Assembly: GCA_964016885.1 (NCBI GenBank)
Contig: OZ024743.1
Coordinates: 297,848,001 to 297,912,000 of the forward strand
Origin: Eledone cirrhosa
Taxonomy: Eukaryota
Length of the DNA: 64,000 nucleotides
Reading direction: 5' to 3'
The position numbers and the translations under genes were made by a program. The notes beneath the pieces are model-generated. The model was not told where the DNA came from. It saw only the letters and a program-made list of their open reading frames with translations, and made no database searches. Shown here piece by piece: positions 1 through 64,000 of this stretch (position 1 is the stretch's first letter; each line of letters opens with the position of its first letter).

Positions 1-81
1 TAAGTTTAGTCAAGTATCTCTTATTTAATCTTCAATTCATTACACGCTTATTTCTTTTATTCATCATTATTTATCCTTTAA

Positions 82-150
82 CGGGTCGATAAAATAAAGT
101 ACCAGTAATACACTGGAATAATTGCTGGCCTTGTGCCAAAAGTAGAAACA
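82..150 (+). mobile_element. 5'-truncated SINE fragment (69 bp), copy 1
   Basis: Flanked by 16-bp direct repeat ATTATTTATCCTTTAA (66-81, 151-166). Absent from most units. Matches the 3' part of the full SINE at 12867-13068. Confidence 0.9.
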
Positions 151-548
151 ATTATTTATCCTTTAAAGGGGCAATAATTTATCTGTAAATATATTTTTCG
201 TTCTGCGTGTTTTCCAATTTCTCCCAAACTAAGCGCTTGTTTTCTCTCGTCAATGACTACATCTAATTATTCTTAACACATGTACGCAATAGATTCTTTA
301 AGAAATATATTCAAAGATATTTTCACAGCTTGTTAGAACTGATCTCACAAATATGAAGAAACAATAACGAAACTACAAGATTGAAGCTCTTTCTTGCTAT
401 GTTAAAAGTAAAATAGATAATTTGATTATCAAGAAACTGAACTGGAAAGTAGAGCAATACAGGAGTTCGAAAAGTGAAGATCAGAAAAGTTCAATCCGTT
501 ATTAGTCACATTCAGCGTTTAGCCAAATGTTCTCTTAATTTCATTTCA

Positions 549-583
549 ACACTATTTACACACTATCTTACACACTACCTTAC
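549..583. repeat. Short degenerate tandem repeat in the spacer (ACACTATTTAC/ACACTATCTTAC/ACACTACCTTAC), present in every unit
   Basis: Three 11-12-bp units read directly; first unit given as representative. Confidence 0.7.
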
Positions 584-685
584 TATATCAGATTATCTCC
601 TTCTTTAGTGATGTCCTCGTTTATTGACTAAAGTGAGAAATGCTAAACTAATTCGTCCAATCTAAATTTACAGATATTTATATTG

Positions 686-693
686 TGACGTCA
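686..693. promoter_or_regulatory. Perfect CRE/ATF palindrome TGACGTCA, one per unit (function unproven)
   Basis: Exact 8-bp consensus seen in each unit just after a TA-rich tract. Motif match only. Confidence 0.25.
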
Positions 694-1542
694 TAGGAAA
701 GCATTTGAGTAGAGAGGTTTTACGAACGTAACGGTCATTCTTAAAATGTTACCATTTATCAACACAAGTTAATTTTGTTAATGGTAGTTTTACTGTAATA
801 CAATTGATGCCTGGAATAATATACTCACCATCTTTTAAAGACGGCTCGGTTTGAAATATTTCTATTATCACGTCTTTTACGTGCATCTAAGGGAAATTCT
901 GCCATCATGATTCCATCTAATTTTGGATAATTTGCTCTTAAATTCGTTGGCGATTCAAATGAGTCTTTCTATAAGAACGCTGAAAATTTAGAAACGGGAC
1001 AAGGTGGGCTTATATTTGTAGTTTTATTTTATCGTTTATTAGGTATTTCGAGATGAAAGCGAACAGTTTTTCTTCGAAAATTACAATAACGTTGCATTTT
1101 CAATTGTATTTATTTGATTTTAATCGAACTATCATTGTTTGATATTACAATTGTTCGATAGATCACAGTAGATTTCAATTAACTTGTTTAGTTTTACTAT
1201 AAATTTTTATTAGAATTGCAATAATAAGATTGTTTATTGTGATTTGTATGATTGTTTGTAGTGTATGCATGAATCTCTATCTCGTCTACGATATATGGTG
1301 AATGATAACATGTAGAAATAACAGCACGATATATGTGAATGTTATTTGATTTAGATAGCAGTATTTATAGCAGAACTTGAAATATCAGTTATATATATAA
1401 AGTAAAGTCTCTATAGAATGTATATTGTTTAGATAATTGCCAGAATATATATACATAAATATCTAATATGCAAAATATGTAATGAAAAGAAAAATGATTT
1501 TTTAAAGAATTATTATTCCTCTACTTCAAAATATCGGTGTTT

Positions 1543-1615
1543 CGAGCTTGTCATGAAACCAATCAGGAATCTCCTGATCCGTAGTCAGGCGCGTTATCCA
1601 TTGCACCACAAGCAC
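1543..1615 (-). pseudogene. tRNA-Arg-ACG: tRNA-Arg(ACG) pseudogene, copy 1
   Basis: Minus strand reads GTGCTTG TG GTGC AATGGATA ACGC G CCTGA CTACGGA TCAGG..., collinear over 73 nt with metazoan tRNA-Arg(ACG). Anticodon arm is perfect, but the T-arm/B-box is destroyed and there is a T2:T71 mismatch. Confidence 0.88.
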
Positions 1616-2068
1616 AGGTTACAAACTGACTGTCAATTTAAATTACTGTAGGTATGTTTTAGACAATACAATCGTTGAATGTCACTCTAATTCTTCCGTG
1701 TCGATGACAAACTTTTGTCCCCAAGATTAGCTAACATTTGGATAATGAATTCAATTTCACTGGAAATTAGGTAAATTATAATTGCATAGAAGGGTGTTAC
1801 CATTCAATTTTCGTGAGTCTGAAATTTTAATTCCAATCCGTTCTCCCTTAAAACCAGTCTTAGGTTTCTTAAACATAACCAATCTTAGTGATTATTTCCT
1901 CCTTAATTTAAAATAGTTGGTAAATATTGTTTCTCCCATACTATCATAGATGGAGAATGCTGAAATTCTTCTATGACCAAATTATCAACTTTCAAGCGAT
2001 TATATTCATAAACGTTTATCTCAAATTACAGTTCTATATGTGAAGAATTCCACTTTCGTTTCCAACTT

Positions 2069-2150
2069 GACGAGGTGGCCGAGTGGTTAAGGCGATGGAC
2101 TGCTAATCCATTGGGATTTTCCCGCGTGAGTTCGAATCTCATCTTCGTCG
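2069..2150 (+). tRNA. tRNA-Ser-GCT: tRNA-Ser(GCT), copy 1
   Basis: Full 82-nt cloverleaf: GACGAGG/CTTCGTC acceptor, ATGGA-CTGCTAA-TCCAT anticodon arm, long variable arm GGG-ATTTT-CCC, GTTCGAATC B-box, G discriminator, no encoded CCA. Confidence 0.97.
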
Positions 2151-2153
2151 ACG

Positions 2154-2158
2154 TTTTT
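2154..2158 (+). terminator. Pol III terminator (T5) after tRNA-Ser, present in each unit
   Basis: TTTTT begins after a 3-nt gap (ACG) following the gene 3' end; first unit given as representative. Confidence 0.8.
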
Positions 2159-3626
2159 GCCATTATATTTAAGTTAAGTCAAGTATCTCTTATTTAATCT
2201 TCAATTCATTACACGCTTATTTCTTTTATTCATCATTATTTTTCCTTTAAAAGGGCAATAATTTATCTGTAAATATATTTTTCGTTCTGCGTGTTTTCCA
2301 ATTTCTCCCAAACTAAGCGCTTGTTTTCTCTCGTCAATGACTACATCTAATTATTCTGAACACATGTACGCAATAGATTCTTTAAGAAATATATTCAAAG
2401 ATATTTTCACAGCTTGTTAGCCTTGATCTCACAAATATGAAGAAACAATAACAAAACTACAAGATTGAAGCTCTTTCTTGCTATGTTAAAAGTAAAATAG
2501 ACAATTTGATTATCAAGAAACTGAACTGGAAAGTAGAGCAATACAGGAGTTCGAAAAGTGAAAATCAGAACAGTTCAATCCGTTATTAGTCACATTCAGC
2601 GTTTAGCCAAATGTTCTCTTAATTTGATTTCAACACTATTTACACACTATCTTACACACTACCTTACTATATCAGATTATCTCCTTCTTTAGTGATGTCC
2701 TCGTTTATTGACGAAAGTGAGAAATGCTAAACTAATTCGTCCAATCTAAATTTACAGATATTTATATTGTGACGTCATAGGAAAGCATTTGAGTAGAGAG
2801 GTTTTACGAACGTAACGGTCATTCTTAAAATGTTACCATTTATCAACACAAGTTAATTTTGTTAATGGTAGTTTTACTGTAATACAATTGATGCCTGGAA
2901 TAATATACTCACCATCTTTTAAAGACGGCTCGGTTTGAAATATTTCTATTATCACGTCTTTTACGTGCATCTAAGGGAAATTCTGCCATCATGATTCCAT
3001 CTAATTTTGGATAATTTGCTCTTAAATTCGTTGGCGATTCAAATGAGTCTTTCTATAAGAACGCTGAAAATTTAGAAACGGGACAAGGTGGGCTTATATT
3101 TGTAGTTTTATTTTATCGTTTATTAGGTATTTCGAGATGAAAGCGAACAGTTTTTCTTCGAAAATTACAATAACGTTGCATTTTCAATTGTATTTATTTG
3201 ATTTTAATCGAACTATCATTGTTTGATATTACAATTGTTCGATAGATCACAGTAGATTTCAATTAACTTGTTTAGTTTTACTATAAATTTTTATTAGAAT
3301 TGCAATAATAAGATTGTTTATTGTGATTTGTATGATTGTTTGTAGTGTATGCATGAATCTCTATCTCGTCTACGATATATGGTGAATGATAACATGTAGA
3401 AATAACAGCACGATATATGTGAATGTTATTTGATTTAGATAGCAGTATTTATAGCAGAACTTGAAATATCAGTTATATATATAAAGTAAAGTCTCTATAG
3501 AATGTATATTGTTTAGATAATTGCCAGAATATATATACATAAATATCTAATATGCAAAATATGTAATGAAAAGAAAAATGATTTTTTAAAGAATTATTAT
3601 TCCTCTACTTCAAAATATCGGTGTTT

Positions 3627-3699
3627 CGAGCTTGTCATGAAACCAATCAGGAATCTCCTGATCCGTAGTCAGGCGCGTTATCCATTGCACCACAAGCAC
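3627..3699 (-). pseudogene. tRNA-Arg-ACG: tRNA-Arg(ACG) pseudogene, copy 2
   Basis: Same sequence as copy 1. Confidence 0.88.
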
Positions 3700-4152
3700 A
3701 GGTTACAAACTGACTGTCAATTTAAATTACTGTAGGTATGTTTTAGACAATACAATCGTTGAATGTCACTCTAATTCTTCCGTGTCGATGACAAACTTTT
3801 GTCCCCAAGATTAGCTAACATTTGGATAATGAATTCAATTTCACTGGAAATTAGGTAAATTATAATTGCATAGAAGGGTGTTACCATTCAATTTTCGTGA
3901 GTCTGAAATTTTAATTCCAATCCGTTCTCCCTTAAAACCAGTCTTAGGTTTCTTAAACATAACCAATCTTAGTGATTATTTCCTCCTTAATTTAAAATAG
4001 TTGGTAAATATTGTTTCTCCCATACTATCATAGATGGAGAATGCTGAAATTCTTCTATGACCAAATTATCAACTTTCAAGCGATTATATTCATAAACGTT
4101 TATCTCAAATTACAGTTCTATATGTGAAGAATTCCACTTTCGTTTCCAACTT

Positions 4153-4234
4153 GACGAGGTGGCCGAGTGGTTAAGGCGATGGACTGCTAATCCATTGGGA
4201 TTTTCCCGCGTGAGTTCGAATCTCATCTTCGTCG
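4153..4234 (+). tRNA. tRNA-Ser-GCT: tRNA-Ser(GCT), copy 2
   Basis: Identical to copy 1. Confidence 0.97.
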
Positions 4235-5711
4235 ACGTTTTTGCCATTATATTTAAGTTAAGTCAAGTATCTCTTATTTAATCTTCAATTCATTACACGC
4301 TTATTTCTTTTATTCATCATTATTTTTCCTTTAAAAGGGCAATAATTTATCTGTAAATATATTTTTCGTTCTGCGTGTTTTCCAATTTCTCCCAAACTAA
4401 GCGCTTGTTTTCTCTCGTCAATGACTACATCTAATTATTCTGAACACATGTACGCAATAGATTCTTTAAGAAATATATTCAAAGATATTTTCACAGCTTG
4501 TTAGCCTTGATCTCACAAATATGAAGAAACAATAACAAAACTACAAGATTGAAGCTCTTTCTTGCTATGTTAAAAGTAAAATAGACAATTTGATTATCAA
4601 GAAACTGAACTGGAAAGTAGAGCAATACAGGAGTTCGAAAAGTGAAAATCAGAACAGTTCAATCCGTTATTAGTCACATTCAGCGTTTAGCCAAATGTTC
4701 TCTTAATTTGATTTCAACACTATTTACACACTATCTTACACACTACCTTACTATATCAGATTATCTCCTTCTTTAGTGATGTCCTCGTTTATTGACGAAA
4801 GTGAGAAATGCTAAACTAATTCGTCCAATCTAAATTTACAGATATATATATTGTGACGTCATAGGAAAGCATTTGAGTAGAGAGGTTTTACGAACGTAAC
4901 ATTCATTCTGAAAATGTTACCATTTATCAACACAAGTTAATTTTGTTAATGGTAGTTTTACTGTAATACAATTGATGCCTGGAATAATATACTCACCATA
5001 TTTTAAAGACGGCTCGGTTTGAAATATTTCTATTATCACGTCTTTTACGTGCATTTAAGGGAAATTCTGCCATCATGATTCCATCTAATTTTGGAAAATT
5101 TGCTCTTAAATTCGTTGGCGATTCAAATGAGTCTTTCTATAAGAACGCTGAAAATTTAGAAACGGGACAAGGTGGGCTAATAATTGTAGTTTTATTTTAT
5201 CGTTTATTAGGATGTTTCGACATGAAAGCGAACCGTTTTTCTTCGAAAATTACAATAACGTTGCATTTTCAATTGTATTTATTTGATTTTAATCGAACTA
5301 TCATTGTTTGATATTACAATTGGTCGATAGATCACAGTAGATTTCAATTAACTTGTTTAGTTTTACTATAAATTTCTATTAGAATTGCAATAATAAGATT
5401 GTTTATTGTGATTTGTATGATTGTTTGTAGTGTATGCATGAATCTCTATCTCGTCTACGATATATGGTGAATGATAACATGTAGAAATAACAGCACGATA
5501 TATGTGAATGTTATTTGATTTAGATAGCAGTATTTATAGCAGAACTTGAAATATCAGTTATATATATAAAGTAAAGTCTCTATAGAATGTATATTGTTTA
5601 GATAATTGCCAGAATATATATACATAAATATCTAATATCCAAAATATGTAATGAAAAGAAAAATGATTTTTTAAAGAATTATTATTCATCTACTTCAAAA
5701 TATCGGTGTTT

Positions 5712-5784
5712 CGAGCTTGTCATGAAACCAATCTGGAATCTCCTGATCCGTAGTCAGGCGCGTTATCCATTGCACCAGAAGCAC
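5712..5784 (-). pseudogene. tRNA-Arg-ACG: tRNA-Arg(ACG) pseudogene, copy 3
   Basis: Array copy with degenerate T-arm. Confidence 0.88.
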
Positions 5785-6238
5785 AGGTTACAAACTGACT
5801 GTCAATTTAAATTACTCTAGGTATGTTTTAGACAATACAATCGTTGAATGTCACTCTAATTCTTCCGTGTCGATGACAAACTTTTGTCCACAAGATTAGC
5901 TACCATTTGGATAATGAATTCAATTTCACTGGAAATCAGCTAAATTATAATTGCATAGAAGTGGTGCTACCATTCAATTTACGTGAGTGTGAAATTTTAA
6001 TTCCAATCCGTTCTCCCTTAAAACCAGTCTTAGGTTTCTTAAACATAACCAATCTTAGTGATTATTTCCTCCTTAATTTAAAATAGTTGGTAAACATTGT
6101 TTTTCCCATACTATCATTGATGGAGAATGCTGAAATTCTTCTATGACCAAATTATCAACTTTCAAGCGATTATATTCATAAACGTTTATCTCAAATTACA
6201 GTTCTATATGTGAAGAATTCCACTTTCGTTTCCAACTT

Positions 6239-6320
6239 GACGAGGTGGCCGAGTGGTTAAGGCGATGGACTGCTAATCCATTGGGATTTTCCCGCGTGAG
6301 TTCGAATGTCATCTTCGTCG
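6239..6320 (+). tRNA. tRNA-Ser-GCT: tRNA-Ser(GCT), copy 3, B-box mutant C61>G (probably impaired)
   Basis: GTTCGAATG instead of GTTCGAATC at 6308. Confidence 0.85.
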
Positions 6321-6420
6321 ACGTTTTTGCCATGATATTTAAGTTTAGTCAAGTATCTCTTATTTAATCTTCAATTCATTACACGCTTATTTCTTTTATT
6401 CATCATTATTTATCCTTTAA

Positions 6421-6489
6421 CGGGTCGATAAAATAAAGTACCAGTAATACACTGGAATAATTGCTGGCCTTGTGCCAAATGTAGAAACA
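6421..6489 (+). mobile_element. 5'-truncated SINE fragment, copy 2
   Basis: Same 69-bp insert and 16-bp TSD as 82-150, 100 bp downstream of tRNA-Ser. Confidence 0.9.
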
Positions 6490-7884
6490 ATTATTTATCC
6501 TTTAAAGGGGCAATAATTTATCTGTAAATATATTTTTCGTTCTGCGTGTTTTCCAATTTCTCCCAAACTAAGCGCTTGTTTTCTCTCGTCAATGACTACA
6601 TCTAATTAATCTGAACACATGTACGCAATAGATTCTTTAAGAAATATATTCAAAGATATTTTCACAGCTTGTTAGCCTTGATCTCACAAATATGAAGAAA
6701 CAATAACAAAACTACAAGATTGAAGCTCTTTCTTGCTATGTTAAAAGTAAAATAGACAATTTGATTATCAAGAAACTGAACTGGAAAGTAGAGCAATACA
6801 GGAGTTCGAAAAGTGAAAATCAGAACAGTTCAATCCGTTATTAGTCACATTCAGCGTTTAGCCAAATGTTCTCTTAATTTGATTTCAACACTATTTACAC
6901 ACTATCTTACACACTACCTTACTATATCAGATTATCTCCTTCTTTAGTGATGTCCTCGTTTATTGACTAAAGTGAGAAATGCTAAACTAATTCGTCCAAT
7001 CTAAATTTACAGATATATATATTGTGACGTCATAGGGAAGCATTTGAGTAGAGAGGTTTTACGAACGTAACGGTCATTCTTAAAATGTTACCATTTATCA
7101 ACACAAGTTAATTTTGTTAATGGTAGTTTTACTGTAATACAATTGATGCCTGGAATAATATACTCACCATATTTTAAAGACGGCTCGGTTTGAAATATTT
7201 CTATTATCACGTCTTTTACGTGCATTTAAGGGAAATTCTGCCATCATGATTCCATCTAATTTTGGAAAATTTGCTCTTAAATTCGTTGGCGATTCAAATG
7301 AGTCTTTCTATAAGAACGCTGAAAATTTAGAAACGGGACAAGGTGGGCTAATAATTGTAGTTTTATTTTATCGTTTATTAGGATGTTTCGACATGAAAGC
7401 GAACCGTTTTTCTTCGAAAATTACAATAACGTTGCATTTTCAATTGTATTTATTTGATTTTAATCGAACTATCATTGTTTGATATTACAATTGGTCGATA
7501 GATCACAGTAGATTTCAATTAAACTTGTTTAGTTTTACTATAAATTCCTATGAGAATTGCAATAATAAGATTGTTTATTGTGATTTGTATGATTGTTTGT
7601 AGTGTATGCATGAATCTCTATCTCGTCTACGATATATGGTGAATGATAACATGTAGAAATAACAGCACGATTTATGTGAATGTTATTTGATTTAGATAGC
7701 AGTATTTATAGCAGAACTTGAAATATCAGTTATATATATATAGTAAAGTCTCTATAGAATGTATATTGTTTAGATAATTGCCAGAATATATATATACATA
7801 AATATCTAATATCCAAAATATGTAATGAAAAGAAAAAAATTTTTTAAAGAATTATTATTCATCTACTTCAAAATATCGGTGTTT

Positions 7885-7957
7885 CGAGATTGTCAGGAAA
7901 CGAATCTGGAATCTCCTGATCCGTATTCAGGCGCATTATCCATTGCACCAGAAGCAC
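7885..7957 (-). pseudogene. tRNA-Arg-ACG: tRNA-Arg(ACG) pseudogene, copy 4
   Basis: Array copy with extra changes in the anticodon loop and D-stem. Confidence 0.85.
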
Positions 7958-8410
7958 AGGTTACAAACTGACTGTCAATTTAAATTACTCTAGGTATGTT
8001 TTAGACAATACAATCGTTGAATGTCACTCTAATTCTTCCGTGTCGATGACAAACTTTTGTCCACAAGATTAGCTACCATTTGGATAATGAATTCAATTTC
8101 ACTGGAAATCAGCTAAATTATAATTGCATAGAAGGGTGCTACCATTCAATTTACGTGAGTGTGAAATTTTAATTCCAATCCGTTCTCCCTTAAAACCAGT
8201 CTTAGGTTTCTTAAACATAACCAATCTTAGTGATTATTTCCTCCTTAATTTAAAATAGTTGGTAAACATTGTTTTTCCCATACTATCATTGATGGAGAAT
8301 GCTGAAATTCTTCTATCACCAAATTATCAACTTTCAAGCGATTATATTCATAAATGTTTATCTCAAATTACAGTTCTACATGTGAAGAATTCCACTTTCG
8401 TTTCCAATTT

Positions 8411-8492
8411 GACGAGGTGGCCGAGTGGTTAAGGCGATGGACTGCTAATCCATTGGGATTTTCCCGCGTGAGTTCGAATCTCATCTTCGTCG
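8411..8492 (+). tRNA. tRNA-Ser-GCT: tRNA-Ser(GCT), copy 4
   Basis: Identical to copy 1. Confidence 0.97.
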
Positions 8493-8591
8493 ACGTTTTT
8501 GCCATTATATTTAAGTTTAGTCAAGTATCTCTTATTTAATTTCAATTCATTACACGCTTATTTCTTTTATTCATCATTATTTATCCTTTAA

Positions 8592-11633: not shown

Positions 11634-12581
11634 CTAGCAGTAAAGCCCGGCGTTGCTCGGGGTCGCTCAGTAGCTGTGTTAAAGTTACAGTGTTAAGTTT
11701 CTTTTTTGGCTTAAAAACTGTAGTGTTTACTGTGCAGACTTGCATGTGGTGTTTTTGATTAATATTCCCTCAACCAACAATATGCCTTATGAAGTTAAGA
11801 AAACATAACGATAACCCGAATGTTATAACAAAAGAGGATGCTGGGGATAAAAACTGCACTGGAATTTATTAACAAAGATCGAAAATGTAAACACTGCAAC
11901 GCAGAGAAAAACATTAGCGTAACCAAATTATCAGTTATGTCTGTCTGCACGCCTATATCACCTCTCTGCACGACTGTCTGTCTGCACGCCTATATCAACT
12001 CTCTGCACGACTGTCTGTCTGCACGCCTATATCACCTCTCTGCACGACTGTCTGTCTGCACGCCTATATCACCTCTCTGCACGACTGTCTGTCTGCACGA
12101 CTGTCTGTCTGCACGCCTAACGACGAAATATTTGCTTGTTTTACGTAGTCTTTAAATAGACTTGTTTTCAAGTAAAAATATTGTTTTAAAATGCTTTTAA
12201 ATGGAAATGAAGCAAAACGGAAGCTTTGTGTTCGAACTGATGAATTTTGCAGGTCAATATTTTGCTGGCTCGACAACTCTTCGTGTATTGTGTTAATGTC
12301 ATTTTTAAACGCTGAGGAAGCCAGCGTAATTTTTTACGTAAGACGCTCAATGTAAACAGAACAAAGGGAAATAACTGATGACTTACGCTCAAAAATCGAT
12401 ACATTATATTCGATTTCGTCACATAGGTTGGGTCAATTTGAAATATTTTTATTCCGATGTCTTCGCTAGGGCTCAATGTACAAGTATAGCAATTTCGGTG
12501 CAATTCCGTTGGAGATTCTAAGAGGAGCTGTGTGCCAAAAATCGATAGACAGACAGACAACCACAGTTTTATATATATAGA
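11634..12581 (-). mobile_element. Non-autonomous Helitron (948 bp), copy 1
   Basis: On the - strand: 5'-TC start, (GTCT)n near the 5' end, hairpin CCCGAGCAACGCCGGG 8 nt before the terminal CTAG-3'. Inserted between A and T of the empty site CGTTTA|TTAGG with no TSD. Confidence 0.92.
11939..12120. repeat. 37-bp minisatellite inside Helitron copy 1 (4 full units plus partials)
   Basis: Unit GTCTGTCTGCACGCCTATATCACCTCTCTGCACGACT read directly. Confidence 0.95.
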
Positions 12582-12866: not shown

Positions 12867-13068
12867 TGTTTCTACTTTAGGCACAAGGCCAGCAATTACC
12901 CAGTGCATTACTGGTACTTTATTTTATCGACCCCGTAAGGATGAAAGGCAAAGTCAACCTCGGCGGGATTTGAACTCAGATCGTAAAGGGACGTAACTAT
13001 GCTGGAAAGCATGGCGTCCGACCCTCTACCGATACTGCCAATCCACCGCCTAAAAGTGACAATCCACC
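12867..13068 (-). mobile_element. Full-length tRNA-derived SINE (202 bp including 18 extra 5' nt)
   Basis: 12-bp TSD TGTAGAAATAAC (12855-12866, 13069-13080). On the - strand: A-box-like TGGCAGTATCGG, B-box GAGTTCAAATC, body GCCTTTCATCCTTACGGGGTCGATAAAATAAAGTACCAG. Resembles octopus SINEs from memory. Confidence 0.92.
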
Positions 13069-13300
13069 TGTAGAAATAACAGCACGATATATGTGAATGT
13101 TATTTCATTTAGATAGCAGTATTTATAGCAGAACTTGAAATATCAGTTATATATATAAAGTAAAGTCTCTATAGAATGTATTTTGTTTAGATAATTGCCA
13201 GAATATATATACATAAATATCTAATATCCAAAATATTTAATGAAAAAAAAAATGATTTTTTAAAGAATTATTATTCATCTACTTCAAAATATCGGTGTTT

Positions 13301-15978: not shown

Positions 15979-16078
15979 ACGTTTTTGCCATTATATTTAA
16001 GTTTAGTCAAGTATCTCTTATTTAATCTTCAATTCATTACACGCTTATTTCTTTTATTCATCATTATTTATCCTTTAA

Positions 16079-17035: not shown

Positions 17036-18012
17036 CTAGCAGTAAAGCCCGGCGTTGCTCGGGGTCGCTCAGTAGCTGTGTTAAAGTTACAGTGTTAAGT
17101 TTCTTTTTTGGCTTAAAAACTGTAGTGTTTACTGTGCAGACTTGCATGTGGTGTTTTTGATTAATATTCCCTCAACCAACAATATGCCTTATGAAGTTAA
17201 GAAAACATAACGATAACCCGAATGTTATAACAAAAGAGGATGCTGGGGATAAAAACTGCACTGGAATTTATTAACAAAGATCGAAAATGTAAACACTGCA
17301 ACGCAGAGAAAAACATTAGCGTAACCAAATTATCAGTTATGCACGCCTATATCACCTCTCTGCACGACTGTCTGTCTGCACGCCTATATCACCTCTCTGC
17401 ACGACTGTCTGTCTGCACGCCTATATCAACTCTCTGCACGACTGTCTGTCTGCACGCCTATATCACCTCTCTGCACGACTGTCTGTCTGCACGCCTATAT
17501 CACCTCTCTGCACGACTGTCTGTCTGCACGACTGTCTGTCTGCACGCCTAACGACGAAATATTTGCTTGTTTTACGTAGTCTTTAAATAGACTTGTTTTC
17601 AAGTAAAAATATTGTTTTAAAATGCTTTTAAATGGAAATGAAGCAAAACGGAAGCTTTGTGTTCGAACTGATGAATTTTGCAGGTCAATATTTTGCTGGC
17701 TCGACAACTCTTCGTGTATTGTGTTAATGTCATTTTAAACGCTGAGAAAGCCAGCGTAATTTTTTTACGTAAGACGCTCAATGTAAACAGAACAAAGGGA
17801 AATAACTGATAACTTACGCTCAAAAATCGATACATTATATTCGATTTCGTCACATAGGGTGGGTCAATTTGAAATATTTTTTTTCCGATGTCTTCGCTAG
17901 GGCTCAATGTACAAGTATAGCAATTTCGGTGCAATTCCGTTGGGGATTCTAAGAGGAGATGTGTGCCAAAAATCGATAGACAGACAGACAACCACAGTTT
18001 TATATATATAGA
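17036..18012 (-). mobile_element. Non-autonomous Helitron (977 bp), copy 2
   Basis: Same termini, hairpin and unit position as copy 1; 29 bp longer because of the internal minisatellite. Confidence 0.92.
17341..17551. repeat. 37-bp minisatellite inside Helitron copy 2 (29-bp partial, 4 full units, partials)
   Basis: Read directly. Confidence 0.95.
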
Positions 18013-21210: not shown

Positions 21211-22686
21211 ACGTTTTTGCCATGATATTTAAGTTTAGTCAAGTATCTCTTATTTAATCTTCAATTCATTACACGCTTATTTCTTTATTCATCATTATTT
21301 TTCCTTTAAAAGGGCAATAATTTATCTGTAAATATATTTTTCGTTCTGCGTGTTTTCCAATTTCTCCCAAACTAAGCGCTTGTTTTCTCTCGTCAATGAC
21401 TACATCTAATTATTCTGAACACATGTACGCAATAGATTCTTTAAGAAATATATTCAAAGATATTTTCACAGCTTGTTAGACATGATCTCACAAATATGAA
21501 GAAACAATAACGAAACTACAAGATTGAAGCTCTTTCTTGCTATGTTAAAAGTAAAATAGACAATTTGATTATCAAGAAACTGAACTGGAAAGTAGAGCAA
21601 TACAGGAGTTCGAAAAGTGAAAATCAGAACATTTCAATCCGTTATTAGTCACATTCAGCGTTTAGCCAAATGTTCTCTTAATTTGATTTCAACACTATTT
21701 ACACACTATCTTACACACTACCTTACTATATCAGATTATCTCCTTCTTTAGTGATGTCCCCGTTTATTGACTAAATTGAGAAATGCTAAACTAATTCGTC
21801 CAATCTAAATTTACAGATATATATATTGTGACGTCATAGAGAAGCATTTGAGTAGAGAGGTTTTCCGAACGTAACATTCATTCTGAAAATGTTACCATTT
21901 ATCAACACAAGTTAATTTTGTTAATGGTAGTTTTACTGTAATACAATTGATGCCTGGAATAATATACTCACCATATTTTAAAGACGGCTCGGTTTGAAAT
22001 ATTTCTATTATCACGTCTTTTACGTGCATCTAAGGGAAATTCTGCCATCATGATTCCATCTAATTTTGGAAAATTTGCTCTTAAATTCGTTGGCGATTCA
22101 AATGAGTCTTTCTATAAGAACGCTGAAAATTTAGAAACGGGACAAGGTGGGCTAATAATTGTAGTTATATTTTATCGTTTATTAGGATGTTACGACATGA
22201 AAGCGACCCGTTTTACTTCGAAAATTACAATAACGTTGCATTTTCAATTGTATTTATTTGATTTTAATCGAACTATCATTGTTTAATATTACAATTGGTC
22301 GATAGATCACAGTAGATTTCAATTAACTTGTTTAGTTTTACGATAAATTTCTATTAGAATTGAAATAATAAGATTGTTTATTGTGATTTGTATGATTGTT
22401 TGTAGTGTATGCATGAATCTCTATCTCGTCTACGATATATGGTGAATGATAACATGTAGAAATAACAGCAGGATATATGTGAATGTTATTTGATTTAGAT
22501 AGCAGTATTTATAGCAGAACTTGAAATATCAGTTATATATATAAAGTAAACTCTCTATAGAATGTATATTGTTTAGATAATTGCCAAAATATATATACAT
22601 AAATATCTAATATCCAAAATATGTAATGAAAAGAAAAATGATTTTTTAAAGAATTATTATTCATCTACTTCAAAATATCGGTGTTT

Positions 22687-56046: not shown

Positions 56047-56119
56047 CGAGATTGTCAGGAAACGAATCTGGAATCTCCTGATCCGTAGTCAGGCGCCTTA
56101 TCCATTGCACCAGAAGCAC
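56047..56119 (-). pseudogene. tRNA-Arg-ACG: tRNA-Arg(ACG) pseudogene, copy 26
   Basis: Array copy. Confidence 0.86.
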
Positions 56120-56572
56120 AGGTTACAAACTGACTGTCAATTTAAATTACTCTAGGTATGTTTTAGACAATACAATCGTTGAATGTCACTCTAATTCTTC
56201 CGTGTCGATGACAAACTTTTGTCCACAAGATTAGCTAACATTTGGATAATGAATTCAATTTCACTGGAAATCAGCTAAATTATAATTGCATAGAAGGGTG
56301 TTACCATTCAATTTTCGTGAGTCTGGAATTTTAATTCCAATACGTTCTCCCTTAAAACCAGTCTTAGGTTTCTTAAATATAACCAATCTTAGTGATTATT
56401 TCCTCCTTAATTTAAAATAGTTGGTAAATATTGTTTCTCCCATACTATCATAGATCGAGAATGCTGAAATTCTTCTATGACCAAATTATCAACTTTCAAG
56501 CGATTATATTCATAAACGTTTATCTCAAATTACAGTTCTATATGTGAAGAATTCCACTTTCGTTTCCAACTT

Positions 56573-56654
56573 GACGAGGTGGCCGAGTGGTTAAGTCGAT
56601 GGACTGCTAATCCATTGGGATTTTCCCGCGTGAGTTCGAATCTCATCTTCGTCG
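56573..56654 (+). tRNA. tRNA-Ser-GCT: tRNA-Ser(GCT), copy 26, D-stem variant G24>T
   Basis: TTAAGTCG (56596). Confidence 0.9.
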
Positions 56655-58132
56655 ACGTTTTTGCCATGATATTTAAGTTTAGTCAAGTATCTCTTATTTA
56701 ATCTTCAATTCATTACACGCTTATTTCTTTTATTCATCATTATTTTTCCTTTAAAAGGGCAATAATTTATCTGTAAATATATTTTTCGTTCTGCGTGTTT
56801 TCCAATTTCTCCCAAACTAAGCGCTTGTTTTCTCTCGTCAATGACTACATCTAATTATTCTGAACACATGTACGTAATAGATTCTTTAAGAAATATATTC
56901 AAAGATATTTTCACAGCTTGTTAGACATGATCTCACAAATATGAAGAAACAATAACGAAACTACAAGATTGAAGCTCTTTCTTGCTATGTTAAAAGTAAA
57001 ATAGACAATTTGATTATCAAGAAACTGAACTGGAAAGTAGAGCAATACAGGAGTTCGAAAAGTGAAAATCAGAACATTTCAATCCGTTATTAGTCACATT
57101 CAGCGTTTAGCCAAATGTTCTCTTAATTTGATTTCAACACTATTTACACACTATCTTACACACTACCTTACTATATCAGATTATCTCCTTCTTTAGTGAT
57201 GTCCTCGTTTATTGACTAAATTGAGAAATGCTAAACTAATTCGTCCAATCTAAATTTACAGATATATATATTGTGACGTCATAGGAAAGCATTTGAGTAG
57301 AGAGGTTTTACGAACGTAACATTCATTCTGAAAATGTTACCATTTATCAACACAAGTTAATTTTGTTAATGGTAGTTTTACTGTAATACAATTGATGCCT
57401 GGAATAATATACTCACCATATTTTAAAGACGGCTCGGTTTGAAATATTTCTATTATCACGTCTTTTACGTGCATCTAAGGGAAATTCTGCCATTATGATT
57501 CCATCTAATTTTGGAAAATTTGCTCTTAAATTCGTTGGCTATTTAAATGAGTCTTTCTATAAGAACGCTGAAAGTTTAGAAACGGGACAAGGTGGGCTAA
57601 TAATTGTAGTTATATTTTATCGTTTATTAGGATGTTACGACATGAAAGCGACCCGTTTTACTTCGAAAATTACAATAACGTTGCATTTTCAATTCTATTT
57701 ATTTGATTTTAATCGAACTATCATTGTTTAATATTACAATTTTGTCGATAGATCACAGTAGATTTCAATTAACTTGTTTAGTTTTACGATAAATTTCTAT
57801 TAGAATTGCAATAATAAGATTGTTTATTGTGATTTGTATGATTGTTTGTAGTGTATGCATGAATCTCTATCTCGTCTACGATATATGGTGAATGATAACA
57901 TGTAGAAATAACAGCAGGATATATGTGAATGTTATTTGATTTAGATAGCAGTATTTATAGCAGAACTTGAAATATCAGTTATATATATAAAGTAAACTCT
58001 CTATAGAATGTATATTGTTTAGATAATTGCCAAAATATATATACATAAATATCTAATATCCAAAATATGTAATGAAAAGAAAAATGATTTTTTAAAGAAT
58101 TATTATTCATCTACTTCAAAATATCGGTGTTT

Positions 58133-58205
58133 CGAGATTGTCAGGAAACGAATCTGGAATCTCCTGATCCGTAGTCAGGCGCCTTATCCATTGCACCAGA
58201 AGCAC
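58133..58205 (-). pseudogene. tRNA-Arg-ACG: tRNA-Arg(ACG) pseudogene, copy 27
   Basis: Array copy. Confidence 0.86.
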
Positions 58206-58658
58206 AGGTTACAAACTGACTGTCAATTTAAATTACTCTAGGTATGTTTTAGACAATACAATCGTTGAATGTCACTCTAATTCTTCCGTGTCGATGACAA
58301 ACTTTTGTCCACAAGATTAGCTAACATTTGGATAATGAATTCAATTTCACTGGAAATCAGGTAAATTATAATTGCATAAAAGGGTGTTACCATTCAATTT
58401 TCGTGAGTCTGGAATTTTAATTCCAATACGTTCTCCCTTAAAACCAGTCTTAGGTTTCCTAAACATAACCAATCTTAGTGATTATTTCCTCCTTAATTTA
58501 AAATAGTTGGTAAATATTGTTTCTCCCATACTATCATAGATGGAGAATGCTGAAATTCTTCTATCACCAAATTATCAACTTTCAAGCGATTATATTCATA
58601 AACGTTTATCTCAAATTACAGTTCTATATGTGAAGAATTCCACTTTCGTTTCCAACTT

Positions 58659-58740
58659 GACGAGGTGGCCGAGTGGTTAAGGCGATGGACTGCTAATCCA
58701 TTGGGATTTTCCCGCGTGAGTTCGAATCTCATCTTCGTCG
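58659..58740 (+). tRNA. tRNA-Ser-GCT: tRNA-Ser(GCT), copy 27
   Basis: Identical to copy 1. Confidence 0.97.
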
Positions 58741-60217
58741 ACGTTTTTGCCATGATATTTAAGTTTAGTCAAGTATCTCTTATTTAATCTTCAATTCATT
58801 ACACGCTTATTTCTTTTATTCATCATTATTTTTCCTATAAAAGGGCAATAATTTATCTGTAAATATATTTTTCGTTCTGCGTGTTTTCCAATTTCTCCCA
58901 AACTAAGCGCTTGTTTTCTCTCGTCAATGATTACATCTAATTATTCTGAACCCATGTACGCAATAGATTCTTTAAGAAATATATTCAAAGATATTTTCAC
59001 AGCTTGTTAGACATGATCTCACAAATATGAAGAAACAATAACGAAACTACAAGATTGAAGCTCTTTCTTGCTATGTTAAAAGTAAAATAGACAATTTGAT
59101 TATCAAGAAACTGAACTGGAAAGTAGAGCAATACAGGAGTTCGAAAAGTGAAAATCAGAACATTTCAATCCGTTATTAGTCACATTCAGCGTTTAGCCAA
59201 ATGTTCTCTTAATTTGATTTCAACACTATTTACACACTATCTTACACACTACCTTACTATATCAGATTATCTCCTTCTTTAGTGATGTCCTCGTTTATTG
59301 ACTAAATTGAGAAATGCTAAACTAATTCGTCCAATCTAAATTTACAGATATATATATTGTGACGTCATAGGAAAGCATTTGAGTAGAGAGGTTTTACGAA
59401 CGTAACATTCATTCTGAAAATGTTACCATTTATCAACACAAGTTAATTTTGTTAATGGTAGTTTTACTGTAATACAATTGATGCCTGGAATAATATACTC
59501 ACCATATTTTAAAGACGGCTCGGTTTGAAATATTTCTATTATCACGTCTTTTACGTGCATCTAAGGGAAATTCTGCCATTATGATTCCATCTAATTTTGG
59601 AAAATTTGCTCTTAAATTCGTTGGTGATTCAAATGAGTCTTTCTATAAGAACGCTGAAAATTTAGAAACGGGACAAGGTGGGCTAATAATTGTAGTTATA
59701 TTTTATCGTTTATTAGGATGTTACGACATGAAAGCGACCCGTTTTACTTCGAAAATTACAATAACGTTGCATTTTCAATTCTATTTATTTGATTTTAATC
59801 GAACTATCATTGTTTAATATTACAATTGGTCGATAGATCACAGTAGATTTCAATTAACTTGTTTAGTTTTACGATAAATTTCTATTAGAATTGCAATAAT
59901 AAGATTGTTTATTGTGATTTGTATGATTGTTTGTAGTGTATGCATGAATCTCTATCTCGTCTACGATATATGGTGAATGATAACATGTAGAAATAACAGC
60001 AGGATATATGTGAATGTTATTTGATTTAGATAGCAGTATTTATAGCAGAACTTGAAATATCAGTTATATATATAAAGTAAACTCTCTATAGAATGTATAT
60101 TGTTTAGATAATTGCCAAAATATATATACATAAATATCTAATATCCAAAATATGTAATGAAAAGAAAAATGATTTTTGAAAGAATTATTATTCATCTACT
60201 TCAAAATATCGGTGTTT

Positions 60218-60290
60218 CGAGATTGTCAGGAAACGAATCTGGAATCTCCTGATCCGTAGTCAGGCGCCTTATCCATTGCACCAGAAGCAC
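60218..60290 (-). pseudogene. tRNA-Arg-ACG: tRNA-Arg(ACG) pseudogene, copy 28
   Basis: Array copy. Confidence 0.86.
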
Positions 60291-60743
60291 AGGTTACAAA
60301 CTGACTGTCAATTTAAATTACTCTAGGTATGTTTTAGACAATACAATCGTTGAATGTCACTCTAATTCTTCCGTGTCGATGACAAACTTTTGTCCACAAG
60401 ATTAGCTAACATTTGGATAATGAATTCAATTTCACTGGAAATCAGCTAAATTATAATTGCATAGAAAGGTATTACCATTCAATTTTCGTGACTCTGAAAT
60501 TTTAATTCCAATACGTTCTCCCTTAAAACCAGTCTTAGGTTTCCTAAACATAACCAATCTTAGTGATTATTTCCTCCTTAATTTAAAATAGTTGGTAAAT
60601 ATTGTTTCTCCCATACTATCATAGATGGAGAATGCTGAAATTCTTCTGTCACCAAATTATCAACTTTCAAGCGATTATATTCATAAACGTTTATCTCATA
60701 TTACAGTTCTATATGTGAAGAATTCCACTTTCGCTTCCAACGT

Positions 60744-60825
60744 GACGAGGTGGCCGAGTGGTTAAGACGATGGACTGCTAATCCATTGGGATTTTCCCGC
60801 GTGAGTTCGAATCTCATCTTCGTCG
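60744..60825 (+). tRNA. tRNA-Ser-GCT: tRNA-Ser(GCT), copy 28, D-stem variant G24>A
   Basis: TTAAGACG (60767). Confidence 0.9.
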
Positions 60826-62302
60826 ACGTTTTTGCCATGATATTTAAGTTTAGTCAAGTATCTCTTATTTAATCTTCAATTCATTACACGCTTATTTCTT
60901 TTATTCATCATTATTTTTCCTTTAAAAGGGCAATAATTTATCTGTAAATATATTTTTCGTTCTGCGTGTTTTCCAATTTCTCCCAAACTAAGCGCTTGTT
61001 TTCTCTCGTCAATGACTACATCTAATTATTCTGAACACATGTACGTAATAGATTCTTTAAGAAATATATTCAAAGATATTTTCACAGCTTGTTAGACATG
61101 ATCTCACAAATATGAAGAAACAATAACGAAACTACAAGATTGAAGCTCTTTCTTGCTATGTTAAAAGTAAAATAGACAATTTGATTATCAAGAAACTGAA
61201 CTGGAAAGTAGAGCAATACAGGAGTTCGAAAAGTGAAAATCAGAACATTTCAATCCGTTATTAGTCACATTCAGCGTTTAGCCAAATGTTCTCTTAATTT
61301 GATTTCAACACTATTTACACACTATCTTACACACTACCTTACTATATCAGATTATCTCCTTCTTTAGTGATGTCCTCGTTTATTGACTAAATTGAGAAAT
61401 GCTAAACTAATTCGTCCAATCTAAATTTACAGATATATATATTGTGACGTCATAGGAAAGCATTTGTGTAGAGAGGTTTTACGAACGTAACATTCATTCT
61501 GAAAATGTTACCATTTATCAACACAAGTTAATTTTGTTAATGGTAGTTTTACTGTAATACAATTGATGCCTGGAATAATATACTCACCATATTTTAAAGA
61601 CGGCTCGGTTTGAAATATTTCTATTATCACGTCTTTTACGTGCATCTACGGGAAATTCTGCCATTATGATTCCATCTAATTTTGGAAAATTTGCTCTTAA
61701 ATTCGTTGGCTATTCAAATGAGTCTTTCTATAAGAACGCTGAAAATTTAGAAACGGGACAAGGTGGGCTAATAATTGTAGTTATATTTTATCGTTTATTA
61801 GGATGTTACGACATGAAAGCGACCCGTTTTACTTCGAAAATTACAATAACGTTGCATTTTCAATTCTATTTATTTGATTTTAATCGAACTATCATTGTTT
61901 AATATTACAATTGGTCGATAGATCACAGTAGATTTCAATTAACTTGTTTAGTTTTACGATAAATTTCTATTAGAATTGCAATAATAAGATTGTTTATTGT
62001 GATTTGTATGATTGTTTGTAGTGTATGCATGAATCTCTATCTCGTCTACGATATATGGTGAATGATAACATGTAGAAATAACAGCAGGATATATGTGAAT
62101 GTTATTTGATTTAGATAGCAGTATTTATAGCAGAACTTGAAATATCAGTTATATATATAAAGTAAACTCTCTATAGAATGTATATTGTTTAGATAATTGC
62201 CAAAATATATATACATAAATATCTAATATCCAAAATATGTAATGAAAAGAAAAATGATTTTTTAAAGAATTATTATTCATCTACTTCAAAATATCGGTGT
62301 TT

Positions 62303-62375
62303 CGAGATTGTCAGGAAACGAATCTGGAATCTCCTGATCCGTAGTCAGGCGCCTTATCCATTGCACCAGAAGCAC
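62303..62375 (-). pseudogene. tRNA-Arg-ACG: tRNA-Arg(ACG) pseudogene, copy 29
   Basis: Array copy. Confidence 0.86.
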
Positions 62376-62828
62376 AGGTTACAAACTGACTGTCAATTTA
62401 AATTACTCTAGGTATGTTTTAGACAATACAATCGTTGAATGTCACTCTAATTCTTCCGTGTCGATGAGAAACTTTTGTCCACAAGATTAGCTAACATTTG
62501 GATAATGAATTCAATTTCACTGGAAATCAGGTAAATTATAATTGCATAGAAGGGTGTTACCATTCAATTTTCGTGAGTCTGGAATTTTAATTCCAATACG
62601 TTCTCCCTTAAAACCAGTCTTAGGTTTCTTAAATATAACCAATCTTAGTGATTATTTCCTCCTTAATTTAAAATAGTTGGTAAATATTGTTTCTCCCATA
62701 CTATCATAGATGGAGAATGCTGAAATTCTTCTATCACCAAATTATCAACTTTCAAGCGATTATATTCATAAAAGTTTATCTCAAATTACAGTTCTATATG
62801 TGAAGAATTCCACTTTCGTTTCCAACTT

Positions 62829-62910
62829 GACGAGGTGGCCGAGTGGTTAAGGCGATGGACTGCTAATCCATTGGGATTTTCCCGCGTGAGTTCGAATCTC
62901 ATCTTCGTCG
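62829..62910 (+). tRNA. tRNA-Ser-GCT: tRNA-Ser(GCT), copy 29
   Basis: Identical to copy 1. Confidence 0.97.
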
Positions 62911-64000
62911 ACGTTTTTGCCATGATATTTAAGTTTAGTCAAGTATCTCTTATTTAATCTTCAATTCATTACACGCTTATTTCTTTTATTCATCATTATT
63001 TTTCCTTTAAAAGGGCAATAATTTATCTGTATATATATTTTTCGTTCTGCGTGTTTTCCAATTTCTCCCAAACTAAGCGCTTGTTTTCTCTCGTCAATGA
63101 CTACATCTAATTATTCTGAACACATGTACGTAATAGATTCTTTAAGAAATATATTCAAAGATATTTTCACAGCTTGTTAGACATGATCTCACAAATATGA
63201 AGAAACAATAACGAAACTACAAGATTGAAGCTCTTTCTTGCTATGTTAAAAGTAAAATAGACAATTTGATTATCAAGAAACTGAACTGGAAAGTAGAGCA
63301 ATACAGGAGTTCGAAAAGTGAAAATCAGAACATTTCAATCCGTTATTAGTCACATTCAGCGTTTAGCCAAATGTTCTCTTAATTTGATTTCAACACTATT
63401 TACACACTATCTTACACACTACCTTACTATATCAGATTATCTCCTTCTTTAGTGATGTCCTCGTTTATTTACTAAAGTGAGAAATGCTAAACTAATTTGT
63501 CCAATCTAAATTTACAGATATATATATTGTGACGTCATAGGAAAGCATTTGAGTAGAGAGGTTTTACGAACGTAACATTCATTCTGAAAATGTTACCATT
63601 TATCAACACAAGTTAATTTTGTTAATGGTAGTTTTACTGTAATACAATTGATGCCTGGAATAATATACTCACCATATTTTAAAGACGGCTCGGTTTGAAA
63701 TATTTCTATTATCACGTCTTTTACGTGCATCTAAGGGAAATTCTGCCATTATGATTCCATCTAATTTTGGAAAATTTGCTCTTAAATTCGTTGGCTATTC
63801 AAATGAGTCTTTCTATAAGAACGCTGAAAATTTAGAAACGGGACAAGGTGGGCTAATAATTGTAGTTATATTTTATCGTTTATTAGGATGTTACGACATG
63901 AAAGCGACCCGTTTTACTTCGAAAATTACAATAACGTTGCATTTTCAATTCTATTTATTTGATTTTAATCGAACTATCATTGTTTAATATTACAATTGGT

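What the first reader, a model, noticed from the sequence alone, without database searches (positions are those of the whole stretch)
1..64000. A >64-kb tRNA-Ser(GCT) macrosatellite: one isoacceptor amplified in an rDNA-like array
Seen: 29 tRNA-Ser(GCT) genes at ~2,085-bp spacing, each with a T5 terminator, and the array runs past both window ends. Known: tandem tDNA arrays exist elsewhere (Entamoeba tRNA arrays, Xenopus oocyte tRNA repeat, human 1q23 tRNA repeat, Arabidopsis Ser-Tyr-Tyr cluster), but I do not recognise this Ser(GCT) plus dead Arg(ACG) unit. Inference: it may supply tRNA dosage for AGY-rich, tissue- or oocyte-specific translation. Alternatively it may play a structural role as periodic TFIIIC/condensin sites, a barrier, or a centromeric/subtelomeric satellite.
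Basis: partly seen in the sequence, partly recalled or inferred. Interest (0 to 1): 0.72.

Follow-up and report, generated by a model that had tools for sequence, protein, structure and literature searches.

The report
Inverted tRNA arrays with split duties
The 29 serine tRNA genes belong to one half of a 190-kb pair of oppositely oriented repeat arrays, where this half has mostly intact serine and broken arginine tRNA genes and the other half has the reverse, likely because an inversion split one array and selection then kept a different tRNA in each half.

Summary
The array is real: 29 tRNA-Ser(GCT) genes, ~2,085-bp units, T5 terminators, a B-box-broken Arg(ACG) relic in every unit. It is not open-ended. 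It is an ~85-kb, 40-copy arm that abuts a ~104-kb, 48-copy inverted sister arm 11.7 kb left of the window, with 12.7% spacer divergence. The arms decayed in complementary fashion. Window arm: Ser structurally clean in 24 of 40, Arg in 0 of 39. Sister arm: Ser 0 of 48, Arg 35 of 49 (Fisher p=0.002 on consensus changes). Best reading: an inversion split one Ser+Arg array, exchange between the halves stopped, and each kept one gene as bulk tRNA supply. Indirect signs of transcription (flank variability, retro-fused copies) are good for the sister-arm Arg, weak for the window's Ser; no RNA was available. The special Ser/AGY reading is not supported: Tyr, Thr and Pro arrays occur in this genome too. 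The scan had already noted other tDNA arrays here (Met, Val, Pro) and a telomere tract in the sister arm; a word look-up found no note on reciprocal loss. New variant of a known kind.

The parts
1..64000 (+). Window part of the plus arm: head-to-tail ~2,085-bp units, each Arg(ACG) relic (-) and Ser(GCT) gene (+) head to head, 453 bp apart. Whole arm: G000 C4:297,836,309 to ~297,921,700 (from 11.7 kb left of base 1 to ~9.7 kb right of base 64,000). Outside the window and part of the same locus: a gap-free inversion junction at C4:297,836,276-297,836,311 and the inverted sister arm, C4:297,732,375-297,836,311 (48 Ser copies, 0 clean; 49 Arg copies, 35 clean)
2069..2150 (+). tRNA-Ser(GCT), first of 29 (last 62,829-62,910); A box, B box, all stems paired in 19 of 29; T5 three bases downstream; array-type isodecoder (A-U closing pair in the variable arm, G6-U wobble)
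   Evidence: (62.3 bits in 19 copies; 52.8-53.6 in 10)
1543..1615 (-). tRNA-Arg(ACG) relic, first of 29; G53A and A58T in the B box in all window copies plus 3-6 broken stem pairs; T4 11 bases downstream
11634..12581 (-). Non-autonomous Helitron-like insertion (5' TC, 3' hairpin then CTAG, between A and T; 37-bp minisatellite inside); same end motif in 4 units of the arm. Class name from recalled Helitron end rules
17036..18012 (-). Second window copy of the same Helitron-like insertion at the same unit position (spread by unit duplication, inferred)
12868..13069 (-). ~200-bp SINE-like insertion with a 12-bp flanking direct repeat; abundant elsewhere in the genome
6423..6497 (+). 3' fragment of the same SINE-like element (adds ~86 bp); also at 84, 8,594, 16,081 and once left of the window
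21948..22048 (.). 101-bp spacer block identical between the two arm consensuses (shown for one unit; present in every unit); likely an old gene-conversion tract

Best explanation
This is one arm of a two-armed tRNA gene array in which this arm has mostly intact Ser(GCT) and broken Arg(ACG) genes and the adjoining inverted arm has the reverse, likely because an inversion split one Ser+Arg array and selection for tRNA supply then kept a different gene in each arm. Steps. (1) Shown: both arms share one 2.08-kb unit with a head-to-head Arg/Ser pair, and each arm is homogenised within itself (spacer diversity 1.7% and 2.4%) but 12.7% apart from the other. (2) Shown by outgroups: the ancestral unit had both genes intact. 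(3) Inferred: an inversion inside an older head-to-tail array stopped unequal crossing-over between the halves. (4) Shown in sequence: complementary decay; inferred: purifying selection on the kept gene of each arm. (5) Inferred: the kept genes are RNA polymerase III templates giving bulk tRNA-Ser(GCU) and tRNA-Arg(ICG), as this genome's other isotype arrays probably do; copies with new mutations turn over by unequal crossing-over.
For: Structure tally: plus arm Ser clean 24 of 40, Arg 0 of 39; sister arm Ser 0 of 48, Arg 35 of 49. The arm consensuses differ at 9 Arg positions, all derived in the plus arm, and 6 Ser positions, 5 derived in the sister arm and 1 ambiguous (against dispersed genes); Fisher p=0.002. 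At half the spacer divergence (6.4%; stem branches 0.068 and 0.059), P(0 of 73)=0.008 and P(<=1 of 82)=0.03. Each arm is one side of a 100/100 branch (85 units; P40 left out), with no run longer than 2 other-arm alleles among 258 diagnostic columns outside the edge units. Old + strand fragments (77-83% identity) lie at both outer edges; the left one ends at unit position 833 and the inverted arm at 874, as a simple inversion predicts. Inner flanks as defined in PMC6130373 are more polymorphic beside kept genes (19 of 60 sites) than beside decayed ones (6 of 60), p=0.006. Sister-arm Arg has 20 variable sites, all rare, none fixed. Dispersed Arg copies carry array-specific 3' trailers that stop at or near the T4 terminator and run into SINE-like sequence: one event with the sister-arm trailer (L068/L069), and L059 and L070 with the plus-arm trailer and an intact B box. 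The arms hold 24 clean Ser against 14 high-scoring copies elsewhere, and 35 clean Arg against 7.
Against: No transcript or Pol III data. For the window's own Ser gene the indirect signals are not significant alone: flanks 7 of 30 vs 4 of 30 (p=0.51), polymorphism-to-fixation p=0.27, allele frequency p=0.29. A D-stem-breaking change has spread to 9 of 29 window copies, so selection per copy is weak. No retro-fused copy of the plus-arm Ser was found. Five sister-arm Ser copies still score 57.4 Rfam bits, above the window's D-stem mutants; calling them inactive rests on the recalled role of C56 in TFIIIC binding. The fixed-difference test is one historical event with 15 changes, and units within an arm are not independent, so all p values are optimistic. 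Dispersed-gene counts come from exact 15-16-mers, are lower bounds, and were scored by Rfam bits rather than my pair test. The left-edge breakpoint rests on a 48-bp hit.
Confidence: 0.65

Rival explanations
1. Neutral or silenced satellite: both arms are passengers, and the complementary pattern is luck in which unit swept each arm.
For: Defective copies spread in both kept genes (16 of 40 Ser, 14 of 49 Arg not clean); window Ser polymorphism does not differ from spacer; transposon and telomere inserts spread in the units; 14 Ser and 7 Arg high-scoring genes exist outside.
Against: Zero or one fixed change in the two kept genes against about 5 expected each (joint probability about 2.5e-4); rare-only variants and hot flanks at sister-arm Arg; retro-fused copy with the sister-arm trailer.
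Confidence: 0.15
2. Tissue- or oocyte-specific Ser(GCU) dosage device for AGY-rich proteins, like the Arabidopsis Ser-Tyr-Tyr cluster in root-cap cells.
For: The array Ser is a distinct isodecoder and outnumbers the dispersed copies; PMC12308677 (abstract) shows such a role is possible; retro-fused Arg copies imply germline transcription of the unit at some time.
Against: Arg(ACG) is amplified as much in the sister arm; Tyr, Thr and Pro have comparable arrays, so nothing singles out AGY. Codon usage and expression were not testable.
Confidence: 0.08
3. Structural locus: periodic TFIIIC/condensin sites, barrier or centromeric satellite; selection is on B boxes, not on tRNA.
For: Each unit keeps about one intact B box in both arms (36 of 40; 48 of 49); the human 1q23.3 repeat is implicated as a boundary (PMC4041453, abstract); one 101-bp spacer block is identical between arms.
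Against: Whole cloverleaves, not just B boxes, are kept; the 101-bp block is as polymorphic as spacer in the sister arm (12 of 101); the locus is 190 kb, interstitial and 31% GC.
Confidence: 0.07
4. Head-to-head interference: genes 453 bp apart compete for upstream factors, so losing one partner is favoured and drives one live gene per pair.
For: 0 of 56 head-to-head pairs sampled in the 1,912-bp Pro array have both genes clean, 40 have exactly one; same pattern in both arms here.
Against: A Pro pair 380 bp apart has both genes clean (L094); the Pro pattern is one event copied many times and reads equally as one dead and one live tail-to-tail subunit.
Confidence: 0.04
5. Assembly artefact (over-expanded repeat or false inverted join).
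For: No public contig bridged the junction (the tool notes that a hole proves nothing).
Against: No N in 464 kb; window units individually distinct; arms 12.7% apart; both arm types present at high and similar depth in runs X1 and X2 (351 vs 332; 533 vs 458; uncalibrated, possibly the assembly's own sample).
Confidence: 0.02

Closest known systems
Arabidopsis Ser-Tyr-Tyr (SYY) tDNA array (PMC2886086, passages seen; PMC12308677, abstract and outline seen; PMC7544208, search listing)
   Same: Tens of tandem units with more than one tRNA type, expanded by unequal crossing-over, many pseudogenes, most diverged copies at array ends.
   Different: No inversion is discussed there (the stem 'inver' does not occur in PMC2886086) and tissue-restricted expression is shown; here two inverted arms with complementary gene loss, expression unknown.
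Entamoeba tRNA gene arrays (PMC2652664, passages seen)
   Same: Isotype-specific tandem arrays under concerted evolution; fission of a multi-gene unit into separate arrays is documented ([ADSSD] into [ASD] and [SD]).
   Different: That paper found no clear pseudogenes and infers fission between species; spacers there are STR-rich. Here the split is caught midway in one locus, with the dead partner still in every unit and an STR-poor spacer (one 12-bp x3 repeat).
Human 1q23.3 tRNA VNTR (PMC4041453, abstract and outline seen)
   Same: Macrosatellite of tens of units bearing tRNA genes.
   Different: 7.3-kb GC-rich unit with a conserved CTCF site; here a 2.08-kb, 31% GC unit, no tested insulator site, two inverted diverged arms.
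Duplication-degeneration-complementation (subfunctionalisation; term as cited in PMC2886086, model otherwise recalled)
   Same: Two duplicates each lose a complementary part of the ancestral function.
   Different: The duplicates here are whole homogenising arrays of 40-48 units, not single genes; need for both is untested, and dispersed back-up genes exist.
Other tDNA arrays of this genome: Tyr(GTA), Thr(AGT), Pro(TGG/AGG); Met and Val (earlier scan notes, not verified here)
   Same: Kilobase units, tens of copies, partly dead genes.
   Different: The sampled Pro array keeps one orientation; Tyr, Thr and Pro units hold one amino-acid family; inverted arms were not seen in the stretches sampled.

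Membership tests
Tandem tDNA array (SYY / 1q23.3 type) | Head-to-tail units of fixed length that carry tRNA genes | tested here: met
Tandem tDNA array (SYY / 1q23.3 type) | Concerted evolution: units within an array far more alike than between arrays | tested here: met
   spacer diversity 1.7% and 2.4% within arms, 12.7% between; arms separate at 100/100
Tandem tDNA array (SYY / 1q23.3 type) | Copy-number variation between individuals | not testable with these tools
   only reduced-representation reads of other samples, 2-3 reads laid
Functional Pol III tRNA gene (window Ser) | A box, B box, paired cloverleaf, oligo-T terminator | tested here: met
   19 of 29 clean, 62.3 bits vs 64.6 for dispersed genes; T5 in 29 of 29
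Functional Pol III tRNA gene (window Ser) | Transcribed and processed | tested here: inconclusive
   indirect only: flank polymorphism not significant for this arm alone; no retro-fused copy
Functional Pol III tRNA gene (window Arg) | Intact B box and stems | tested here: not met
   0 of 29
Subfunctionalised duplicates (DDC) | Ancestor had both functions | tested here: met
   dispersed copies with plus-arm trailer and intact Arg B box; edge Ser copy and dispersed genes give ancestral Ser states
Subfunctionalised duplicates (DDC) | Complementary loss in the two duplicates | tested here: met
   24/40 and 0/39 vs 0/48 and 35/49; p=0.002; sequence-level only
Subfunctionalised duplicates (DDC) | Both duplicates now required | not testable with these tools
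   needs deletion or population data
Entamoeba-type tRNA arrays | STR-rich spacers, no clear pseudogenes | tested here: not met
1q23.3-type boundary repeat | GC-rich unit with conserved CTCF site | tested here: not met
   31% GC; CTCF binding itself not tested
Centromeric or subtelomeric satellite | Terminal position | tested here: not met
   81 Mb from the nearer end
Centromeric or subtelomeric satellite | CENP-A occupancy | not testable with these tools
   no ChIP data

The most novel reading that the evidence does not exclude
An inversion that cuts a homogenising two-gene tRNA array in two is enough to subfunctionalise whole arrays: each arm becomes the genome's main source of one isoacceptor, both arms become needed, and this is a route by which animals turn mixed tRNA repeats into single-isotype arrays. 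This locus shows the process midway, with the switch in activity readable in flank mutation load and in retro-fused fossils of each arm's pre-tRNA.
Probability: 0.35. Interest if true: 0.6.

Novelty: new variant of a known kind. Interest (0 to 1): 0.4.

Why it matters
Tandem tRNA arrays are known, and this genome has several, so the array alone is ordinary. What is unusual is a natural experiment: the same two tRNA genes in the same unit, split into two non-exchanging arrays, with opposite fates. It gives an internal control for whether arrayed tRNA copies are under selection and transcribed, a question that PMC2652664 (passages seen) left open for Entamoeba. The arm-specific isodecoders and trailers make it directly testable by sequencing.

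Tried and rejected
Exon reading of the 101-bp block: on - it starts at an ATG, is open for 25 codons and ends at a donor-like GTGAGT. Rejected: no synonymous or intronic divergence either, within-arm changes alter residues and include a stop, polymorphism equals spacer in the sister arm (12 of 101; slightly lower in the plus arm, 5 of 101, p=0.049), no Pfam match. No other Rfam family in window 1-22,000 at E<=1 beyond tRNA and sub-threshold matches lying on the tRNA itself. Inverted arms in the Pro array: the strand switch was a motif polymorphism; the array keeps one orientation. Strict one-live-gene-per-pair rule: counter-example in L094. Retro-fused plus-arm Ser copies: none; the one new outside hit is a degenerate relic; a further sister-type Arg fragment (L087) lies in AT microsatellite and is uninformative. 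Val motif search gave 2 hits, no more than control, so the Val array of earlier notes was not verified. Rfam tRNA family search of the genome scored only 63 of ~552,000 candidates and gives no census. Sequencing runs: no RNA holder listed. Junction not bridged by any listed contig; reads were laid only on 831 bases of spacer around it, so read support over the tRNA genes is untested. Literature: searches showed no paper title or abstract start describing inverted sister tRNA arrays with complementary loss; the library lacks most subscription papers and no supplements were opened, so annotation tables may already list this locus.
Full report
Observation. ARAGORN finds 29 tRNA-Ser(GCT) genes on the + strand. 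24 of 28 spacings are 2,084-2,088 bp; the four longer ones carry insertions. All 29 genes end in a SalI site and T5. The 28 complete units differ at 1-68 of 2,085 columns, mean 1.5%. Each unit has an Arg(ACG) relic on the - strand, head to head with Ser and 453 bp away. By a test of all stem pairs and invariant bases, set so that two dispersed reference genes pass, 19 of 29 window Ser genes are clean and 0 of 29 Arg relics are (one search had wrong numbering and its clean/broken tally is discarded). Rfam agrees: 62.3 bits for 19 Ser copies, 52.8-53.6 for 10, and only 1 Arg relic above the 29-bit cut-off.

Extent and surroundings. The window is G000 C4:297,848,001-297,912,000 in a 3.0-Gb genome; C4 is 378.8 Mb. 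I read 464 kb around it, with no N. The window's arm runs from 297,836,309 to about 297,921,700 and has 40 Ser copies, two of them degenerate edge copies. Directly left lies an inverted array of the same unit, 297,732,375-297,836,311, with 48 Ser and 49 Arg copies. The arm consensuses differ at 242 of 1,905 spacer columns (12.7%); diversity within arms is 1.7% and 2.4% (37 and 46 units; edge units P39, P40, M01 left out). On a spacer tree of 85 units (P40 left out) each arm is one side of a 100/100 branch, and outside edge units no copy has more than 2 consecutive other-arm alleles at 258 diagnostic columns.

Complementary decay. Plus arm: Ser clean 24 of 40, B box intact 36 of 40; Arg clean 0 of 39, B box broken in all 39. 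Sister arm: Ser clean 0 of 48, B box broken in 36 (C56U in 35), the other 12 with A21U and at least two broken pairs or a deletion; Arg clean 35 of 49, B box intact in 48. Sister Arg scores mostly 60.6 bits, like dispersed Arg genes (58.7-62.8), while sister Ser copies that pass the cut-off score 36.7-57.4 against 64.6 for dispersed Ser. Polarised with dispersed genes, all 9 Arg consensus differences arose in the plus arm, and 5 of 6 Ser differences in the sister arm, 1 ambiguous; Fisher p=0.002. One of the five (G49A) turns a G-U into an A-U pair and is not damaging by itself. With 6.4% neutral change per arm, keeping 0 of 73 and at most 1 of 82 changes has probabilities 0.008 and 0.03. Conversion from dispersed genes is an unlikely cause, because both kept genes carry array-type bases absent from most dispersed copies.

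Origin (inferred). Fragments 77-83% identical to the unit lie in + orientation at both outer edges. The left fragment ends at unit position 833; the inverted arm ends at 874; the plus arm resumes at 1,167 while the inverted arm begins at about 117. This fits an inversion inside an older head-to-tail array, with about 1 kb lost at one break. Unequal crossing-over cannot move whole units between oppositely oriented blocks without rearranging the chromosome (established knowledge), which explains the two clades. One 101-bp spacer block is identical between arms (permutation p<1/2000) but not depleted of polymorphism in the sister arm; I read it as an old conversion tract.

Activity (indirect). 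PMC6130373 (passages seen) reports that the 20 bases upstream and 10 downstream of active tRNA genes are more variable than those of inactive ones. With those windows, flanks of kept genes have 19 of 60 variable sites, flanks of decayed genes 6 of 60, background 11% (p=0.006). The signal comes mostly from the sister arm (12 vs 2 of 30, p=0.005); the window's arm alone is not significant (7 vs 4 of 30, p=0.51). Sister Arg has 20 variable sites, each variant in at most 4 of 46 units, none fixed (p=0.0016 for frequency); window Ser does not differ from spacer (p=0.29), and a D-stem break is in 9 of 29 copies. Units are related by duplication, so these p values overstate independence. Of 14 Arg anticodon-arm hits outside the locus, five carry array trailers. 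L068 and L069 (one event) are a 5'-truncated Arg gene whose sister-type trailer ends at the T4 and joins the head of the SINE-like element. L059 and L070 are full-length, have an intact B box and a plus-type trailer, and join a shared repeat tail; L062 has the plus-type trailer and runs on past the T4. These look like template-switch retrocopies of pre-tRNA (class known for U6 and other RNAs; PMC4476161 and PMC13174262 seen as search listings only). They imply germline transcription of the array's Arg gene, including a version with the plus-type trailer before it decayed. No such copy of the plus-arm Ser was found.

Genome context. An exact 16-mer of the Ser(GCT) anticodon arm has 64 hits: 38 plus arm, 5 sister arm, 21 elsewhere; in the loci scanned (20 of those 21) 14 genes score at least 64.6 bits, most on C6. 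The Arg(ACG) 15-mer has 92 hits: 43 sister arm, 35 plus arm, 14 elsewhere, of which 7 score 58.7-62.8 bits. So each arm is the largest pool of its isoacceptor found, though these are lower bounds. Other arrays: Tyr(GTA), 4,981-bp unit, 99.8% identical, C1:49.29-49.40 Mb; Thr(AGT), 66 calls in 48 kb on C1; Pro(TGG/AGG), 1,912-bp unit on C3; a looser Lys(TTT) cluster on C2. Only the first 100 of 547 and of 200 motif hits were listed. Ser(GCT) is therefore not singled out.

Comparison. Tandem tDNA arrays are known: Arabidopsis SYY (PMC2886086 passages; PMC12308677 abstract), human 1q23.3 (PMC4041453 abstract), Entamoeba (PMC2652664 passages), and clustering varies widely among animals (PMC2888827 passages). 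PMC13578239 was seen as abstract and outline only. The locus meets the testable features of a tandem tDNA array and the sequence-level features of subfunctionalised duplicates; it fails the Entamoeba and 1q23.3 specifics. Searches showed no description of inverted sister arrays with complementary tRNA loss; the library is partial and no supplements were read. Earlier scan notes (a few lines each, unchecked) report Met, Val and Pro arrays and a telomere tract in the sister arm; I confirmed the tract (9 units) and the Pro array. Look-ups near the window and by words returned nothing.

Verdict. Real; ordinary as an array; unusual as a two-armed locus with complementary gene loss. Best explanation 0.65; interest 0.4; new variant of a known kind.

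Noticed in passing
G000 C4:297,781,502-297,806,841 (L004-L006) and junction 297,836,311: A (TTAGGG)n-type tract sits at one site in 9 sister-arm units (sister consensus ~881-898), within about 10 bp of the inversion breakpoint (874). The same spot of the unit may have broken twice; noticed after the fact.
   Followed up: partly
window 21,948-22,048 and every unit: 101-bp block identical between the arms; on - it begins at an ATG, is open for 25 codons and ends at a splice-donor-like site. Read as a conversion tract; exon reading not supported.
   Followed up: yes
L068:3094-3200, L069, L059, L070, L062: Dispersed Arg(ACG) copies with array-specific trailers fused to SINE-like or repeat-tail sequence: likely retro-chimeras of pre-tRNA, the raw material of new tRNA-headed SINEs.
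   Followed up: yes
G000 C3:235.94 to at least 236.15 Mb (L094-L100): Pro array whose 1,912-bp unit is a dimer of 73%-identical halves, with one good and one broken TGG and one good and one broken AGG gene; a 5,030-bp variant block lies to its left.
   Followed up: partly
G000 C1:49.29-49.40 Mb (L071-L077): Tyr(GTA) array, 4,981-bp unit with three genes on both strands, 99.8% identical units.
   Followed up: partly
G000 C1:243.648-243.696 Mb (L084-L086, L091-L093): Thr(AGT) array with copies called Ser(ACT), Ile(AAT), Pro(AGG), Phe(AAA) by ARAGORN, probably anticodon mutants.
   Followed up: no
G000 C6:30.830-30.849 Mb (L044-L045): Second Ser(GCT) cluster of 13 copies on both strands, ~3.2-kb period in its middle, unrelated spacer; two copies have a variable arm close to the array type.
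   Followed up: partly
L040, L002, L004 (sister arm): Anticodon mutants inside the sister arm: Arg body with ACT (2 copies) or TCG (1), Ser body with ACT (2); possible mistranslating or re-assigned tRNAs if expressed.
   Followed up: no
sister arm, distal 50 kb (L039-L003): Units largely alternate between two subtypes, a dimeric higher-order repeat, each with a different set of Ser defects.
   Followed up: partly
window 11,634-12,581 and 17,036-18,012: Helitron-like inserts and SINE fragments are confined to the junction-proximal 13 units of the plus arm; the distal units, apart from the degenerate right edge, are insertion-free and more homogeneous.
   Followed up: partly
G000 C4:297,835,529-297,835,731 (L009): A ~300-bp local duplication puts a second, damaged Arg copy in the last sister-arm unit.
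   Followed up: no
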